NCBI RefSeq assembly: GCF_050320075.1
Contig: NZ_CP190018.1
Length of the DNA stretch: 64,000 nt
Strand: one strand, 5' to 3'
DNA from: Escherichia coli
GTDB taxonomy: Bacteria; Pseudomonadota; Gammaproteobacteria; Enterobacterales; Enterobacteriaceae
A model generated the notes under the pieces. It did not search any database and was not told the origin of the DNA. It saw only the letters and a list, made by a program, of their open reading frames with translations. Made by a program: the position numbers and the translations under genes. Shown piece by piece: positions 14,641-25,996 of this stretch. Positions within the stretch are counted from its first letter, which is position 1; every line of letters begins with the position of its first letter.

Positions 14641-14663
14641 TTTGGCGGAAGATCACAGGAGTC
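14641..14663. repeat. att direct repeat (distal copy): TTTGGCGGAAGATCACAGGAGTC, identical to the 3' end of selC
   Basis: Exact 23-bp match to 25900-25922; sequences diverge immediately beyond. Confidence 0.85.
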
Positions 14664-14792
14664 AAAATTGCCATATAACCATTTGATTCAAATCGTTTAT
14701 ATTTTTCTATTATAATTCATTTATACACATCCTTATACATATAATATCTATCGATTAATTTTTACACGTATCTTCACGCATGTTAACTCAGG

Positions 14793-15095
14793 AAAAAAAT
14801 TTTTTTTCGAAAGAACTGTTCACACTGTTCACCTTTCTGTTTTCTCCTTTTATTTCAGAGTGATAGGTGGTGAATAATGGGTGAAGGGTGAACATTCGAT
14901 TCTTCACCTCCGGCATTCTGCCGGTGTGACTCATACCGGTGATTAATCCCCCGAACTGAAATCACACAGGGAGAAAAAAGTTTTTTTTTGATTTGATTGT
15001 TCACACTGTTCACCTTTCATTTTTCTCTTTAAATTTCAGTGTGATAACGGGTGAATATACGGTGAAGGGTGAACAGTGGATTGTTCACCTTCGGG
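14793..15095. repeat. crr-like cis replication region: two ~120-bp direct repeats (period 181 bp), each carrying TGTTCACC / GGTGAACA iterons
   Basis: TGTTCACA + TGTTCACC at 14817-14833 and again at 14998-15014; GGTGAACA at 14887 and 15068; TGTTCACC at 15082. Lies immediately downstream of the alpha gene, as P4 crr does. Confidence 0.7.
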
Positions 15096-15139
15096 GAATT
15101 CAGGGATAAAAAAAGACCGGCAGATGCCGGTCAGGTGGG

Positions 15140-17473
15140 TCAGGCTGTCGCAGGGTCGTCACATTTTGGCAGCCAGTCGCCGTAGCTTTCCTCTTTCAGC
15201 GTCAGGTTGGTCTGTATCCCCTGTTTGGTATGGCGCTTCTCGTAATTCAGTCCGTATTCCTTCAGCATCACCGGCAGCCCCAGCCCGAACATTTTCAGAC
15301 TGAGTACATTCCGGTAGCCGTTTGCCTCCATGTAGGCCAGATAGGCGTGATAGAGGTATTTACGGTAATTACGCGGGATGATACTGGCGTTCCCCATATA
15401 CATGCCGCTGGTCTGCGGCAGGGTTTCCAGATAGCCGATAAAATCAAACGTCGGGTCGGCATCCCGTTTGATGTTCAGTGCCTCGTCTGAGTTCTGCTGG
15501 GACTGAAGCAGTGACCGGGCGAGCATCGGGTCGCTGAACTTCTGCATCAGGTGACGCACGATGACCGCCAGCTCGCGGGTGATTTTGTCCTTAAGCTGCG
15601 GGTCGCGCTCCTGCGGGGCTATCTGTTCCGGGAAGTGAATAATCACCCGCCGGCGTGACACGCCGCCGCTGCGGTCGGTGAAGCGCATCGGGTTATTGTT
15701 CACGGCCAGAATCACCGCCGGGATATGCGTGGAGTATGCATCCCGGTATTTCGGGTCAACGGACACCGCATCGCCGCCGGTGATGGCCTTGAGTCCGGCT
15801 CCGTCGCCGCTCCATTTTTCCTGGTCCGGCAGGCGTATCAGTGAGAAGCCAGTTAACGCGGCACGTTCACGCGGGGATTCCAGCGTCTCAATGGTGGCCG
15901 ACGTGGCGTTATCCTCCCCGGCCAGCAGGGTGGCTATTTCGGCCATGATACTTTTGCCGCTGCCGCCGGGACCGGTCACCTCCAGAAAGAGCTGCCAGTC
16001 GTAGCGGTTTGCCAGCACCATAAACAGTGCGGCCAGAATCACGTCGCGTTTTTCCGCACGGCCACCGGCGGCACGGTCAAGCCAGCGCCAGAACGCGGGG
16101 GCGTGGGTTTCCAGCGTTTCACCGTCCACCGGCGGGGTGAAATCCACATCGCACAGGGTGCGCATCCAGTGTGACGGACTGTGCGGGTGGAACGTGCCGT
16201 TCTGCGTGTCGAGCACGCCGTTACGAAAGCCAATCAGGCGGCGGGAGGGGGCTTCCTGCTGAGGAATAATCAGCTTCAGGGTGTCCACCACGGAGGCCAC
16301 CTTCCCGGAGGAGAACGGCGCGCGCAGACGCTGAAACAGCCCGGCCACATCCCGGGCAAAGTCCTGTGGCGGCAGCACCTTCCATACACCATTTTCATAG
16401 CGGGACAGAAGCTGGCCGTTGGCATCGACCGCGAGCGCCTCGCCGTAATGCTCATAGATACGCATGGCCTTTTCGCTGGTACTCATGGCGGAAAACTCCG
16501 CTTCGCTCATGGTGTCGAACGGGCTTTCAGCCGGTGGCCGGATGGCATCATAAATGGCCTTACGGGTGGCTTCCCCGCCGTACTGCGTGAAGGCATCATT
16601 CCAGTCACCGAAGACCGGCGGCAGGGCAACAACACCTTCACACGCATCTGCGGCTGCGGCGGCTTTTTTCTGGCCGTCACCGCTGAGGTCACGGTCAGCA
16701 GCAAGGACAATCTGACAGGCTGGATGCTTCTGCCGGGCAAGGCTGGCCAGAGAAAGGAGATTCACGGAAGAAAGCGCCACCATCACCGTTTCACCGGTCA
16801 GGTGATGCACGGTAAGTGCGGTCGCGTATCCCTCCGCTATCCACAGACGTTTTCCGGCCTGATTCTGTCCTTCAAGGGTGTGACAGGTGCCCCTGACCTG
16901 TCCGCCTTTCAGGGTGCGCTTACGGCCGTCAGCACTGATTAACTGAAGGTTAACCAGTTCGCCGCTGTCGTCATACAGTGGCACCACAAGGTCACCGGCA
17001 CGCCAGCTCACGCCACCGGCTCTGTGTGTGCCGGTCAGCATCCGGCATTCCCGGCCGGGAAAGCCCTTGCGGGTCAGGTAGGCGTTACCGGTTCCGGGAC
17101 GGGTTTTCGCCATCAGGGTTTGTGCCAGTGCGGCGGCGTTCTTCCGGGCAGCGTCTGTTTCAGCACCGGCGGCAGCCGTCACTGCCGGGTCAGCCGGGGG
17201 CAGGCTGCCGGTCACGGCAGCCACCTTTGCTGCCGCGTCGGACGGGGAAACACCAAACACCTTTTCAACCAGTTTCAGGCCGTCACCGGCACCACACTGA
17301 TTGCAGTACCAGGTGCCGCGCCCCTCCCTGTCATCAAAACGGAAGCGGTCACTCCCGCCACAGACCGGACAGGGCTGATGACGGTTTTTCAGCACCTGAA
17401 TCCCCAGCGCCGGGAGAATACGCGGCCAGTGGCCGAGCGCATGGCTGACGGTGGCGGTTACGTTCATTTTCAT
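15140..17473 (-). CDS. P4-type alpha protein: zinc-binding primase / helicase replication initiator (777 aa)
   Basis: N-terminal Zn-ribbon CPVCGGSDRFRFDD...WYCNQCG, then toprim-like and P-loop (TGPGGSGKS) regions; 777 aa equals P4 alpha as recalled. Confidence 0.85.
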   Translation of the reverse strand: MKMNVTATVSHALGHWPRILPALGIQVLKNRHQPCPVCGGSDRFRFDDREGRGTWYCNQCGAGDGLKLVEKVFGVSPSDAAAKVAAVTGSLPPADPAVTAAAGAETDAARKNAAALAQTLMAKTRPGTGNAYLTRKGFPGRECRMLTGTHRAGGVSWRAGDLVVPLYDDSGELVNLQLISADGRKRTLKGGQVRGTCHTLEGQNQAGKRLWIAEGYATALTVHHLTGETVMVALSSVNLLSLASLARQKHPACQIVLAADRDLSGDGQKKAAAAADACEGVVALPPVFGDWNDAFTQYGGEATRKAIYDAIRPPAESPFDTMSEAEFSAMSTSEKAMRIYEHYGEALAVDANGQLLSRYENGVWKVLPPQDFARDVAGLFQRLRAPFSSGKVASVVDTLKLIIPQQEAPSRRLIGFRNGVLDTQNGTFHPHSPSHWMRTLCDVDFTPPVDGETLETHAPAFWRWLDRAAGGRAEKRDVILAALFMVLANRYDWQLFLEVTGPGGSGKSIMAEIATLLAGEDNATSATIETLESPRERAALTGFSLIRLPDQEKWSGDGAGLKAITGGDAVSVDPKYRDAYSTHIPAVILAVNNNPMRFTDRSGGVSRRRVIIHFPEQIAPQERDPQLKDKITRELAVIVRHLMQKFSDPMLARSLLQSQQNSDEALNIKRDADPTFDFIGYLETLPQTSGMYMGNASIIPRNYRKYLYHAYLAYMEANGYRNVLSLKMFGLGLPVMLKEYGLNYEKRHTKQGIQTNLTLKEESYGDWLPKCDDPATA

Positions 17474-24563: not shown

Positions 24564-24575
24564 TGTATATACCTC

Positions 24576-25739
24576 TCAATATAATTTATCTGAATACCAT
24601 TGCATCATTTTTTTTCTATGTTCAAGATATTGAGCATGATTGTAAGTCCCTCGGATTCTGTTTTTATCAACATGTGCCAATTGTATTTCAATCCATGCGC
24701 TATCAAACCCTTGTTCGTGCAATATTGTCGACATGGTATGCCGAAAACCGTGACCTGTAGCACGGCCTTTGTAGCCAATTAACTCAATCACTTGTGAAAC
24801 ACTTTCTTTTGAGATTGGCTTGCTGCGGTTGTTCCTGCCAATAAAGATGTAAGGGTAATGGCCGGTAATAGGTTTGAGCTGTTTGAAAAGGTCAACTACC
24901 TGAGTAGATAAAGGAACAATGTGAGGTCTACGCATTTTCATACGTTCCGCTGGTATCTCCCATATACCTTTTTCGAGGTCTACTTCTTCCCACGTAGCAA
25001 AGCGCATCTCCTGCGTTCTTACACCAGTCAGCATGACTATCTTCGTAGCATTTTTGGTGATGATGCTACCGGTATACGCTTCAAGATCTCGAATAAAATG
25101 AGGCAACTCTTCAGCGGATAAAAATGGATGGTGTTTTTGCTTGGGAACGGCCAGAGCGATAGCTAAATCAGGTGCAGGATTGTACTCAGCACGGCCAGTT
25201 ATGATTGCATAGCGATAAACCTCACCGCATCTTTGACGCACCTTGCGTGTTTTCTCTAGTGCTCCACGTTTTTCGATTCGTCGTAATACTTCAAGCAGTT
25301 CTAATGGTTTGATTTCACTGATAGGACGTTTACCAATGAACGGGAAGACATCTTGCTCGAATGTCTTAATGATTTCTTCTCGATAGGCCACAGTCCAGCG
25401 GTCAGCTTTGTTGGTATGCCATTCTCGACATATTGCTTCGAAAGAATTTTCTGTTGATAGCTTTTGGGCGAGTCTTAAAGCTTTGCGTTCCTCTACCGGG
25501 TCAATGCCATTAGCAACCTGCTTACGGGCGATATCACGCTTCTCACGTGCTTCTGCGAGGCTTACTAAATCGTAGCTGCCAAATGACATTAACCGCGCTT
25601 TCCCTGCAAACCGGAAACGGAAACGCCAGCCTTTCGAGCCATCGGGATTGATAAGCAATGACAGACCTTGTCCATCGTTCAATGTGTATGGCTTGTCTTG
25701 TGGTTTTGCACGTTTGATCTGTATATCGGTGAGAGCCAT
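24576..25739 (-). CDS. int: P4-family tyrosine integrase (387 aa)
   Basis: N-terminal MALTDIQIKRAKP...GKARLMSFGSYDLVSLAEAREKR and C-terminal catalytic region (HGFRHTMSTILHEQG ... RGTYNH); adjacent to the tRNA target. Confidence 0.9.
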   Translation of the reverse strand: MALTDIQIKRAKPQDKPYTLNDGQGLSLLINPDGSKGWRFRFRFAGKARLMSFGSYDLVSLAEAREKRDIARKQVANGIDPVEERKALRLAQKLSTENSFEAICREWHTNKADRWTVAYREEIIKTFEQDVFPFIGKRPISEIKPLELLEVLRRIEKRGALEKTRKVRQRCGEVYRYAIITGRAEYNPAPDLAIALAVPKQKHHPFLSAEELPHFIRDLEAYTGSIITKNATKIVMLTGVRTQEMRFATWEEVDLEKGIWEIPAERMKMRRPHIVPLSTQVVDLFKQLKPITGHYPYIFIGRNNRSKPISKESVSQVIELIGYKGRATGHGFRHTMSTILHEQGFDSAWIEIQLAHVDKNRIRGTYNHAQYLEHRKKMMQWYSDKLY

Positions 25740-25901
25740 GTGTATAACTGAAAACTACTTATAAAAAATCTATACACATTACTATACATATTTTTCGCGG
25801 ATTTAGGGAGACGATCTCGGACTGTTACGGATAAGATGATTATTCATCATATTGAATATAAAGGGTTTTATGGATCATCTCGGAACTGGCTGGATGAAGT
25901 T

Positions 25902-25996
25902 TGGCGGAAGATCACAGGAGTCGAACCTGCCCGGGACCGCTGGCGGCCCCAACTGGATTTGAAGTCCAGCCGCCTCACCGGAGACGACGATCTTCC
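25902..25996 (-). tRNA. selC: tRNA-Sec (selenocysteine tRNA), intact, 95 nt
   Basis: Reverse complement matches my recollection of E. coli selC from GGAAGATCGTCGTCTCC... to ...GATCTTCCGCCA. Confidence 0.95.

What the first reader, a model, noticed from the sequence alone, without database searches (positions are those of the whole stretch)
14641..25922. selC is occupied by a P4-like satellite, not by a LEE-type pathogenicity island
A 23-bp direct repeat identical to the 3' end of tRNA-Sec flanks an 11.3-kb element with integrase at the tRNA-proximal end. selC itself is intact. The element size (about 11.3 kb versus 11.6 kb for P4 as recalled) and its full gene set suggest a complete, possibly inducible satellite rather than a remnant.
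Basis: partly seen in the sequence, partly recalled or inferred. Interest (0 to 1): 0.5.

Follow-up and report, generated by a model that had tools for sequence, protein, structure and literature searches.

The report
Intact P4-type phage satellite at selC
The selenocysteine tRNA gene of this E. coli carries an apparently complete copy of a P4-type phage satellite, a small element that steals the capsid of a helper phage, with a sirtuin-type anti-phage gene as cargo; this is an ordinary, well-known kind of element.

Summary
An exact 23-bp direct repeat (14641-14663, 25900-25922), the second copy being the 3' end of an intact tRNA-Sec, brackets an 11,259-bp insertion. Deleting it in silico restores the empty K-12 selC locus, and a near-isogenic strain has exactly that empty site.

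About 60% of the element (crr to most of delta, psu to cos) is ~97% identical to phage P4. All seven core genes of the P4-like family are full length, and crr, ori, cos, the late-promoter sites and the CI-RNA immunity region are present. I found no inactivating lesion.

Four modules differ from P4:
- The integrase is 38% identical, with its own arm repeats and the selC core.
- Delta is an 81-aa single unit rather than 166 aa.
- The RNA immunity boxes changed in a three-way compensatory manner, which predicts heteroimmunity to P4.
- gop/beta/cII are replaced by a 906-aa SIR2 protein whose predicted fold matches the defence NADase DSR2 over its full length.

Inducibility by a P2-type helper is inferred, not shown. 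P4-like satellites at selC, and this very cargo protein, are already catalogued, so novelty and interest are low.

The parts
14641..14663 (.). attL core, the left copy of the 23-bp direct repeat
   Evidence: Exact repeat of 25900-25922. It marks the boundary of colinearity with the empty K-12 and strain 631 sites.
14664..14793 (.). crr-side att arm, with a tandem pair of arm-type repeats TATACACAT (14722-14730) and TATACATAT (14734-14742)
   Evidence: The same 9-mers recur on the int-side arm. The layout mirrors the ATGCCCCC arm repeats of P4 at similar distances from the core. The arm has no similarity to P4.
14792..15094 (+). crr, the cis replication region: two 122-nt direct repeats (14792-14913, 14973-15094) carrying TGTTCACC type-1 repeats
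   Evidence: the repeat finder family D1. It aligns to the annotated P4 crr at 4291-4590.
15115..15132 (-). terminator downstream of alpha (t-alpha)
   Evidence: Terminator-like hairpin followed by a T run, at the position of the annotated P4 t-alpha.
15140..17473 (-). alpha, the primase-helicase replication protein (777 aa)
   Evidence: 99.4% identical to P4 alpha over 777/777 aa. PHROG DNA primase and TIGR01613 match.
17488..17808 (-). orf106 / cnr (106 aa)
   Evidence: 100% identical to P4 ORF106.
17944..18399 (-). orf151 (151 aa)
   Evidence: 98.7% identical to P4 ORF151.
18392..18679 (-). epsilon, the helper derepression protein (95 aa)
   Evidence: 98.9% identical to P4 epsilon over 95/95 aa. 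Matches phrog_10016.
18672..19262 (-). Icd-like (kil-type) ORF as annotated by PGAP, overlapping the immunity RNA region
   Evidence: NF033153 phage_ICD_like, 72 bits. Annotated this way in near-identical genomes.
18880..18919 (-). seqC, the downstream target of the CI RNA (box 1 at 18913-18919, box 2 at 18880-18887)
   Evidence: Exact complement of both seqB boxes.
18924..19011 (-). CI immunity RNA (C4 antisense RNA family), containing seqB (box 2 CCGAUAAC at 18960-18967, box 1 UUCUCAC at 18946-18952)
   Evidence: Rfam RF01695, 76.2 bits, full model.
19139..19162 (-). seqA, the upstream target of the CI RNA (box 1 at 19156-19162, box 2 at 19139-19146)
   Evidence: Rfam c4-a1b1 and isrK hits at 19110-19200. 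Complementary to seqB, with covariation across 41 elements.
19194..19223 (-). PLE-type early promoter (TTGCCT-18-TATAGT)
   Evidence: Promoter-like site in a stretch identical to P4. That it is PLE is from my knowledge of P4.
19259..19525 (-). vis / alpA (orf88), excisionase and late-promoter regulator (88 aa)
   Evidence: 98.9% identical to P4 ORF88. PHROG excisionase and transcriptional regulator.
19628..19645 (.). TGT-N12-ACA dyad upstream of vis, the PLL-type late promoter activator site
   Evidence: Pattern found, in a region about 95% identical to P4. Its function is from knowledge of Ogr/Delta-dependent promoters.
19671..19908 (.). ori: three type-2 repeats (19671-19700) and six type-1 repeats (19805-19908)
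   Evidence: All P4 ori repeats are conserved in place.
19988..20005 (.). TGT-N12-ACA dyad of the Psid late promoter
   Evidence: The region 19947-20078 differs from P4 at one base.
20078..20812 (+). sid, the capsid size determination scaffold (244 aa)
   Evidence: 98% identical to P4 Sid over 244/244 aa. PGAP names it 'capsid size-determining scaffold Sid'.
20809..21054 (+). delta, the late-gene transactivator, as a short single-unit allele (81 aa)
   Evidence: Ogr/Delta zinc-finger family with the four Cys at positions 4, 7, 30 and 35. Only 51% identical to P4 delta over 45 aa. The P4 segment 10436-10903 is replaced.
21078..21641 (+). psu, polarity suppression and capsid decoration protein (187 aa by the PGAP start; a GTG ORF runs from 21069)
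   Evidence: 95.7% identical to P4 Psu over 188 aa. Matches phrog_6366.
21759..21840 (.). cos packaging region, with the 19-nt cohesive end GGCGAGGCGGGGAAAGCAC at 21806-21824
   Evidence: Identical to the P4 ends (P4 1-19 and the last 180 nt). 89-95% identical to P2-type cos regions. Exact site.
21843..24563 (-). hotspot cargo: a 906-aa DSR2-like SIR2 NADase (WP_000365012), 30% G+C
   Evidence: Pfam SIR2_2. phmmer to DSR2 gives E=9e-38, with N110 and H148 aligned to DSR2 N133 and H171. AF2 model pLDDT 88.4. Foldseek finds DSR2 over the full length, TM 0.72-0.74. Listed as a P4 hotspot locus in Rousset 2022 Table S1A.
24576..25739 (-). int, tyrosine integrase of the selC-targeting type (387 aa)
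   Evidence: PHROG integrase. 38% identical to P4 Int. Catalytic R241, H330, R333, H356 and Y366 are present. Integrases 90-92% identical in DNA sit at selC in other satellites.
25738..25899 (.). int-side att arm: an inverted repeat at 25738-25747 over the int start, then a tandem pair TATACACAT (25771-25779) and TATACATAT (25783-25791)
   Evidence: k-mer analysis.
25900..25922 (.). attR core, the right copy of the repeat and the 3' end of selC
25902..25996 (-). selC (tRNA-Sec), intact; this is the integration target and not part of the element
   Evidence: ARAGORN, Rfam 83.8 bits, identical to K-12.

Best explanation
This is an intact prophage of a P4-type, P2-dependent phage satellite, integrated by its own tyrosine integrase into the 3' end of selC.

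Shown by sequence:
- The insertion is precise and 11,259 bp long, flanked by the duplicated 23-bp att core.
- All seven core genes that define P4-like satellites (int, psu, delta, sid, alpA/vis, epsilon, alpha) are full length.
- The cis elements are present: crr, ori, cos with the P2/P4 19-nt cohesive end, TGT-N12-ACA late-promoter dyads, and the CI-RNA immunity cassette with self-consistent seqA/seqB/seqC.

Inferred from the established biology of P4:
- In the lysogen, CI RNA pairs with seqA and seqC in the nascent early transcript and causes premature termination, which keeps alpha silent.
- When a P2-type helper infects or is induced, the late promoters fire and Vis plus Int excise the element.
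- Alpha then replicates the element from ori/crr, Epsilon derepresses the helper, and Delta turns on helper late genes.
- Sid forces small capsids, Psu decorates them, and the helper terminase cuts and packages the 11.3-kb genome at cos.

The element is a mosaic. It has a P4 backbone but a different integrase/att module that sets the selC target, a short delta allele, and immunity boxes that predict heteroimmunity to P4. In the cos-proximal hotspot it carries a DSR2-family SIR2 NADase. That gene lies 12 nt downstream of int behind a GAGG ribosome-binding site, and I found no terminator-like site in the gap, so it is probably co-transcribed with int. By homology, the protein most likely aborts infection by competing phages through NAD+ depletion.
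For: - Boundaries and target.
- P4 backbone and intact genes.
- cos, ori, crr and promoter sites.
- Immunity RNA: Rfam C4 and a1b1 hits. Three-way compensatory changes relative to P4. 37 of 41 P4-like elements have perfect seqA/seqB/seqC complementarity across 10 box combinations. On a 24-sequence subset, 100% of cells pair and 9 of 15 pairs have double-sided changes, against 54% or less paired when partners are slid.
- Recent precise gain or loss: strain 631 has an empty selC with flanks 6064/6064 and 6021/6023 identical to the window. A third strain of the same lineage holds a different P4-like satellite there.
- Spread: the same element is in 31 of 5,426 complete E. coli genomes. That includes SMS-3-5, whose intergenic flanks are far more divergent than the element.
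- Cargo.
- Family criteria: the seven core components of de Sousa and Rocha (PMC8628076). Hotspot concept: Rousset et al. (PMC9122126).
Against: - Nothing here tests function. No P2-like helper is in the 64-kb window, and I could not check the rest of the host genome.
- Vis is the P4 allele (98.9%) while Int and both att arms are a foreign module. I found no convincing shared Vis site between the PLL region and the arms, so Vis-assisted excision with this attP is assumed, not shown.
- Delta is a divergent short allele acting on P4-type promoters.
- The closely related copy in SMS-3-5 has a damaged attL core with a 4-bp deletion, so copies of this element do decay in place.
- The cargo matches no PADLOC DSR model, only SIR2 domains of ThsA and candidate systems. 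It is also not the SIR2 protein tested in Rousset 2022, and that SIR2 construct is not among the validated systems that paper's text names.
Confidence: 0.85

Rival explanations
1. It is a domesticated, no longer mobilisable P4-derived island, kept by the host mainly as a carrier of the SIR2 defence gene. The genes look intact only because the element arrived recently or because they are under host selection.
For: No helper is in the window. The SMS-3-5 copy has a degenerate attL. Pairing the P4 Vis allele with a foreign Int/att module is untested, and no shared site was found. Defence cargo gives the host a reason to retain the element.
Against: This copy has both att cores perfect, all seven core genes full length, and cos, ori, crr and self-consistent immunity boxes intact. 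A near-isogenic strain has a precisely empty site. The same int/att family carries many different cargos at selC in other strains, which is what active satellites produce.
Confidence: 0.12
2. It is a pathogenicity or genomic island of another kind, such as a LEE-type or SPI-3-type island, that merely uses a P4-family integrase.
For: selC is a classic island site. A rhuM/yicT pseudogene remnant lies next to attL. Type III secretion-related genes lie a few kb away at window 1-10163.
Against: Every gene between the repeats is a P4 homologue, the integrase or the SIR2 cargo. The rhuM/yicT remnant is outside the repeats and is also present in K-12. The secretion-related genes lie beyond setC, yicL and nlpA and are also present in the strain with an empty selC.
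Confidence: 0.01
3. The repeat is a chance match or an assembly artefact, and there is no discrete element.
For: None found.
Against: Zero matches are expected by chance. The boundaries coincide to the base with empty sites in K-12 and strain 631. The same junctions occur in independent complete genomes.
Confidence: 0.005

Closest known systems
Satellite phage P4 (NC_001609 / X51522)
   Same: Same gene order and about 97% DNA identity from crr through sid and from psu to cos. Alpha, cnr, orf151, epsilon, vis, sid and psu are 95.7-100% identical. The ori and crr repeats, the cos end and the late-promoter dyads are the same. The size is similar, 11.26 against 11.62 kb.
   Different: The integrase is only 38% identical, with different arm repeats (TATACAYAT against ATGCCCCC) and a different core. 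By my recollection P4 integrates at a leucine tRNA gene (leuX); here the target is selC. Delta is 81 aa rather than 166 aa. Box 2 of seqA/B/C is changed. gop/beta/cII are replaced by a DSR2-like gene.
Retronphage phiR73 (Inouye et al. 1991; Sun et al. 1991), a P4-like satellite integrated in selC
   Same: It is a P4-like element that integrates into the selenocysteine tRNA gene and carries a defence-type cargo, a retron, in the non-essential region. It was reported as a P2-dependent phage (cited in PMC9122126 and PMC6174562). By my recollection it is heteroimmune to P4 through changes in cI and its target sites (Sabbattini et al. 1996).
   Different: The cargo here is a SIR2 protein, not retron Ec73. 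I could not obtain the phiR73 sequence: the accession I recalled is not in the collections and the paper is not held. Identity of int, delta and the immunity boxes to phiR73 is therefore untested. A retron-bearing relative at selC (strain LSN03-016011/A) has int about 92% identical in DNA but the long delta and P4-type box 2.
P4-like satellites with defence hotspots (Rousset et al. 2022, PMC9122126; de Sousa and Rocha 2022, PMC8628076)
   Same: The cargo lies between psu/cos and int, exactly the described hotspot. The cargo protein WP_000365012 is itself listed there as a single-gene 'SIR2_2' locus. All seven core components are present, which makes the element Type A.
   Different: Nothing differs in kind. 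That study did not test this protein: the SIR2 construct pFR88 is another sequence.
DSR2, defence-associated sirtuin 2 of Bacillus subtilis (PDB 8k98, 8wy8, 8z18 and others)
   Same: The SIR2 domain matches at E=9e-38, with the catalytic Asn and His conserved (N110, H148) and invariant in 82 homologues. The predicted fold aligns over the whole length, TM 0.72-0.74.
   Different: Overall identity is only about 18%, and the protein is 906 rather than 1005 aa. No PADLOC DSR model matched. The trigger is unknown (for DSR2 it is a phage tail tube protein). Tetramer formation was not examined.
c4 antisense RNA immunity of phages P1 and P7 (Rfam clan CL00128)
   Same: The CI RNA and its targets hit the Rfam C4 and c4-a1b1 models. 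Immunity specificity is set by complementary short boxes.
   Different: Here the system sits in a satellite and, by knowledge of P4, controls transcription termination of the replication operon. The two variable boxes combine freely, with 10 combinations among 41 elements.

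Membership tests
P4-like phage satellites (seven core components; PMC8628076) | Tyrosine integrase at one end of the element | tested here: met
   387-aa Int at 24576-25739 with the catalytic residues intact.
P4-like phage satellites (seven core components; PMC8628076) | alpha primase-helicase | tested here: met
   777 of 777 aa aligned, 99.4% identical to P4 alpha.
P4-like phage satellites (seven core components; PMC8628076) | epsilon | tested here: met
   95 of 95 aa aligned, 98.9% identical.
P4-like phage satellites (seven core components; PMC8628076) | alpA / vis | tested here: met
   88 of 88 aa aligned, 98.9% identical.
P4-like phage satellites (seven core components; PMC8628076) | sid, delta and psu as an adjacent operon | tested here: met
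   sid 98% and psu 95.7% identical. Delta is present as an 81-aa Ogr/Delta zinc-finger protein with all four Cys.
P4-like phage satellites (seven core components; PMC8628076) | P2-type cos site for packaging by the helper terminase | tested here: met
   The exact 19-nt cohesive end at 21806-21824, with flanks identical to P4 and similar to P2.
P4-like phage satellites (seven core components; PMC8628076) | Dependence on a P2-like helper for excision, packaging and transfer | not testable with these tools
   This needs an experiment. No helper genes are in the window.
phiR73-type (selC-integrating) P4-like satellites | Integration into the 3' end of tRNA-Sec with duplication of the core | tested here: met
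phiR73-type (selC-integrating) P4-like satellites | Carries retron Ec73 | tested here: not met
   The only cargo is the 906-aa SIR2 protein; there is no reverse transcriptase.
phiR73-type (selC-integrating) P4-like satellites | Int, delta and immunity boxes identical or near-identical to phiR73 | not tested
   The phiR73 sequence was not obtainable in these collections.
DSR2 family of defence NADases | N-terminal SIR2 domain with catalytic Asn and His | tested here: met
   N110 and H148 align with DSR2 N133 and H171 and are invariant in 82 homologues.
DSR2 family of defence NADases | Full-length architecture: SIR2, middle domain and helical C-terminal sensor | tested here: met
   AF2 model pLDDT 88.4. 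Foldseek TM 0.72-0.74 to DSR2 chains over about 990 columns.
DSR2 family of defence NADases | Recognised by curated defence-system profiles | tested here: not met
   PADLOC hits are only ThsA SIR2 domains and the candidate systems PDC-S25 and PDC-S65. NCBIfam gives none.
DSR2 family of defence NADases | NAD+ depletion triggered by a phage structural protein; protection against phage | not testable with these tools
   This needs an experiment.
LEE-type pathogenicity island at selC | Type III secretion and effector genes between the att sites | tested here: not met
   All ORFs between the repeats are P4 homologues, int or the SIR2 gene.

The most novel reading that the evidence does not exclude
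P4-like satellites may carry a combinatorial two-box RNA immunity code. CI-RNA seqB has two short variable boxes, with at least 3 variants of box 1 and 5 of box 2, and 10 combinations among 41 elements. Each box is matched exactly by both target sites, seqA and seqC. The window's element (P4-type box 1, box 2 CCGAUAAC) would then be one of many mutually heteroimmune classes. Reassortment of the boxes would decide which satellites can superinfect or co-reside in one cell. A further, more speculative possibility is that the DSR2-like cargo has to be tuned to spare the tail tube of its own P2 helper.
Probability: 0.5. Interest if true: 0.4.

Novelty: new member of a known kind. Interest (0 to 1): 0.2.

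Why it matters
It matters little as a discovery. P4-like satellites occur in a large share of E. coli genomes. selC has been a known satellite attachment site since phiR73. This very element is present in 31 complete RefSeq genomes, and its cargo protein is already listed among P4 hotspot loci.

Its value is as a clean worked example:
- An apparently fully competent satellite, with an isogenic empty-site strain to compare against.
- A mosaic of four swapped modules (integrase/att, delta, immunity boxes, defence cargo) on a nearly unchanged P4 backbone.
- A DSR2-family NADase in Enterobacteria that current defence-system profiles do not name. That makes it a convenient candidate for testing what such satellite-borne sirtuins sense, and whether they spare the helper.

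Tried and rejected
- I tried to fetch phiR73 (recalled accession M64113) and the Sun et al. 1991 paper. Neither is held. tblastn of Int and Delta against the phage collection found no phiR73 record: best Int hits were about 48% and best Delta hits about 57% identical. Identity to phiR73 stays untested.
- I looked for a Vis-binding motif shared by the PLL region and the att arms of this element and of P4, using 8-mers. Only A/T-rich chance-like words turned up.
- PADLOC and NCBIfam gave no system-level name for the cargo. The DSR2 link came only from the PDB sequence search and the fold search.
- I checked whether the SIR2 system tested by Rousset et al. (pFR88) is this protein. It is not.
- I considered that the rhuM pseudogene next to attL belongs to the element or marks a tandem island. 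Rejected, because it is the K-12 yicT pseudogene and lies outside the repeats.
- I considered lab P4 contamination. Rejected, because int, att, delta and cargo differ and both chromosomal junctions are present.
- I could not determine whether the host carries a P2-like helper. The window has none, and the search tools cannot list hits for one chosen genome.
- Two paper searches failed on a term shorter than 3 characters, and a search on seqA/seqB immunity found nothing relevant.

Full report
**Observation**

The 23-mer TTTGGCGGAAGATCACAGGAGTC occurs exactly twice in the window, at 14641-14663 and 25900-25922. This holds even when three mismatches are allowed, and none is expected by chance.

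ARAGORN finds one tRNA in the window, tRNA-SeC at 25902-25996 on the minus strand. Rfam scores it 83.8 bits over the whole model. The right-hand repeat is therefore the last 21 nt of selC plus two bases.

Deleting 14641-25899 (11,259 bp) gives a sequence colinear with the empty setC-yicT-selC-yicJ locus of K-12, with no gap at the junction and an identical tRNA.

**What lies between the repeats**

Megablast against the phage collection finds P4 as the only long match. Window 14794-20931 and 21084-21805 align to P4 4291-10436 and 10903-11624 at about 97%.

Protein by protein, against P4:

| Protein | Identity to P4 | Length |
|---|---|---|
| alpha | 99.4% | 777 aa |
| orf106/cnr | 100% | 106 aa |
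| orf151 | 98.7% | 151 aa |
| epsilon | 98.9% | 95 aa |
| vis/orf88 | 98.9% | 88 aa |
| sid | 98.0% | 244 aa |
| psu | 95.7% | 188 aa aligned |

All are full length, with supporting PHROG and NCBIfam hits.

The cis elements annotated in P4 are in place:
- The two 120-nt crr repeats at 14792-15094.
- The terminator downstream of alpha.
- Three type-2 and six type-1 ori repeats at 19671-19908.
- TGT-N12-ACA dyads in front of sid and vis.
- The 19-nt cohesive end GGCGAGGCGGGGAAAGCAC at 21806-21824, with upstream flank matching P4 at all but one base.

By the published definition of P4-like satellites, the seven core components are int, psu, delta, sid, alpA, epsilon and alpha (PMC8628076). This element has all seven, which makes it Type A. 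I found no frameshift, stop codon or truncation in any of them. The integrase keeps R241, H330, R333, H356 and Y366.

**Where it is not P4**

Four modules differ.

1. *Integrase and attachment site.* Int is only 38% identical to P4 Int, and neither att arm resembles P4. The architecture is nevertheless the same. There is one inverted arm repeat over the int start codon, a tandem pair about 110-130 bp from the core on the int side, and a tandem pair about 60-80 bp from the core on the crr side. The motif is TATACAYAT in place of P4's ATGCCCCC. Integrases 90-92% identical in DNA sit at selC in other P4-like satellites that carry a retron or a GapS4a gene as cargo. The attL junction of this att family is present in 461 of 5,426 complete E. 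coli genomes.

2. *Delta.* It is an 81-aa single Ogr-like unit with the four zinc-binding Cys, not the 166-aa P4 form. The P4 segment 10436-10903 is replaced.

3. *Immunity region.* Rfam finds the C4-family CI RNA at 18924-19011 and its a1/b1-type target at 19148-19200. Relative to P4, the differences cluster in three patches. In RNA sense they are:
   - seqB: CCUGUGAA becomes CCGAUAAC.
   - seqA and seqC: UUCACAGG becomes GUUAUCGG in both.

   This is a three-way compensatory change. To see whether this is general, I collected 40 IMG/VR contigs by an exact CI-RNA pattern; 37 of them had the full region. Together with the window, P4 and two E. coli loci, that gave 41 elements.
   - seqB has two variable boxes in 10 combinations.
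   - 37 of the 41 elements have perfect 7+8-bp complementarity at both targets.
   - On a 24-sequence subset, which left out the four imperfect elements, all 330 seqA-seqB cells pair and 9 of 15 pairs show double-sided changes. With partners slid, 54% or less of the cells pair.

   The window's cassette is therefore self-consistent. By the logic established for P4 and phiR73 (my knowledge: Sabbattini et al. 1995, 1996), it should be heteroimmune to P4.

4. *The non-essential region.* P4's gop-beta-cII is replaced by one 906-aa ORF at 21843-24563 (minus strand). It is 30% G+C, against 56% for the backbone.
   - Its stop codon lies 18 nt from the cos end, and its ATG lies 12 nt after the int stop, behind a GAGG.
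   - This is the psu/cos-int defence hotspot described by Rousset et al. (PMC9122126). The exact protein, WP_000365012, appears in their Table S1A as a single-gene 'SIR2_2' locus.
   - The SIR2 construct they tested is a different protein.

**The cargo**

- Pfam finds only SIR2_2 at residues 105-238.
- PADLOC matches only the SIR2 domains of ThsA and candidate systems.
- The PDB sequence search gives DSR2 at E=9e-38 over residues 12-295. N110 and H148 align with the DSR2 catalytic N133 and H171.
- The exhaustive representative search finds 469 relatives at E<=1e-30, many of them full length at 25-49% identity. In an 82-sequence alignment G25, T109, N110, H148 and G149 are invariant.
- An AlphaFold model built on that alignment is confident, with pLDDT 88.4 and pTM 0.82. 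Foldseek aligns it to DSR2 chains over about 990 columns at TM 0.72-0.74 and 18% identity.

The cargo is therefore a DSR2-family protein. By homology it should be a phage-triggered NADase that causes abortive infection. Its trigger is unknown.

**Evidence that the element is, or recently was, mobile**

- The window's chromosome is nearly identical to strain YZLc1-3, with 1 mismatch in 14 kb and 3 in 38 kb of flank.
- Strain 631 has the same flanks, 6064/6064 and 6021/6023 identical, but an empty selC with a single core copy.
- A third strain of the lineage, FXCREC043, has the same left flank but a different P4-like satellite at selC.
- The same element occurs in 31 complete genomes. In SMS-3-5 the cargo-int part is 100% identical, while the intergenic chromosomal flank is far more divergent.
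- The SMS-3-5 copy has a damaged attL core, with a 4-bp deletion and substitutions. The window's copy has both cores perfect.
- Differences between copies of the element fall almost entirely within alpha; only two lie downstream of it, in orf151 (YZLc1-3 copy).

**Mechanism**

The sequence shows the integration, the gene and site complement and the immunity complementarity. The rest is inferred from P4 biology:
- CI RNA keeps the replication operon silent in the lysogen.
- A P2-type helper activates the late promoters.
- Vis and Int excise the element, and alpha replicates it from ori/crr.
- Epsilon and Delta manipulate the helper.
- Sid and Psu remodel the capsid.
- The helper terminase packages the genome at cos.

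The weak points are these:
- No helper is in the window.
- A P4-type Vis is paired with a foreign Int/att module, and I found no recognisable shared site.
- The delta allele is divergent.

**Comparison and novelty**

The closest known elements are P4 itself and the selC-integrating retronphage phiR73 (cited). I could not obtain the phiR73 sequence, so allele-level identity is untested. The retron is absent, so this is not phiR73.

A LEE-type island is excluded here. Strain 95-3192 shows, however, that a satellite of this family and LEE can sit side by side at selC.

The element is a further member of a well-known, very common family, and its cargo is already catalogued. The DSR2 assignment and the two-box immunity tabulation are modest additions. 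Interest is low, at about 0.2.

Noticed in passing
window 18880-19162 (-); IMG/VR loci L011-L050: Across 41 P4-like elements the CI-RNA seqB has two independently varying boxes. Box 1 is UUCUCAC, UUUCCAC or UUCCUAC. Box 2 is CCUGUGAA, CCGAUAAC, UCUUCGAG, CCGUUAGA or CCUAUGAC. Ten combinations occur, and 37 of 41 elements have both targets exactly complementary. This looks like a reassorting immunity code.
   Followed up: partly
L010 (E. coli SMS-3-5) about 625-645, equivalent to window 14641-14663: The otherwise near-identical element in SMS-3-5 has a degenerate attL core (ATTGGC----GATCACAGGAGTC). That copy may no longer excise, whereas the window's copy has a perfect attL.
   Followed up: partly
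L051 (strain 631) and L052 (strain FXCREC043), against window 8600-14663 and 25900-31922: Three strains share essentially identical flanks but differ at selC. One is empty (631), one holds this element (the window and YZLc1-3), and one holds a different P4-like satellite (FXCREC043). This indicates rapid turnover at one attachment site within a lineage.
   Followed up: partly
window 15250-18300: Almost all nucleotide differences between this element and its three closest copies fall within alpha (two more lie in orf151 of the YZLc1-3 copy), and none falls in the 7.6 kb from epsilon to attR. This may be a recombination patch exchanged with co-resident satellites.
   Followed up: no
window 14437-14564: A rhuM-family pseudogene fragment (yicT in K-12) lies between setC and attL, outside the element, and is shared with K-12 and strain 631. 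It is probably the vestige of a much older island at selC.
   Followed up: partly
window 1-10163: This is a cluster related to type III secretion. It holds an Ig-like domain protein with internal repeats about 88% identical (3-413 and 585-995), the HilA-family regulator EilA, an IpaD/SipD-like tip protein, a YopB/SseC-like translocon subunit and a SycD/LcrH chaperone. It lies a few kb from selC, beyond setC, yicL and nlpA, and is also present in the strain with an empty selC.
   Followed up: no
window about 30294-37237: An insertion between yicI and yicH encodes a BglG-type antiterminator, fructose-type PTS IIA/IIB/IIC components, two aldolases, a ROK protein and a sugar isomerase. In strain LSN03-016011/A, yicI and yicH are adjacent.
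   Followed up: no
L009 (strain 95-3192) 1-13320: A related P4-like satellite with GapS4a cargo sits at selC with the LEE genes escF, escG and espF and an IS3 remnant directly beyond its alpha end. No second copy of the 23-bp core was found within 4 mismatches. Its immunity cassette is inconsistent: seqA is P4-type while seqB and seqC are another type.
   Followed up: partly
window 24563-24578: The int stop codon and the cargo start codon are 12 nt apart, with a GAGG between them and no terminator-like site. The defence gene may therefore be expressed from the integrase promoter.
   Followed up: no
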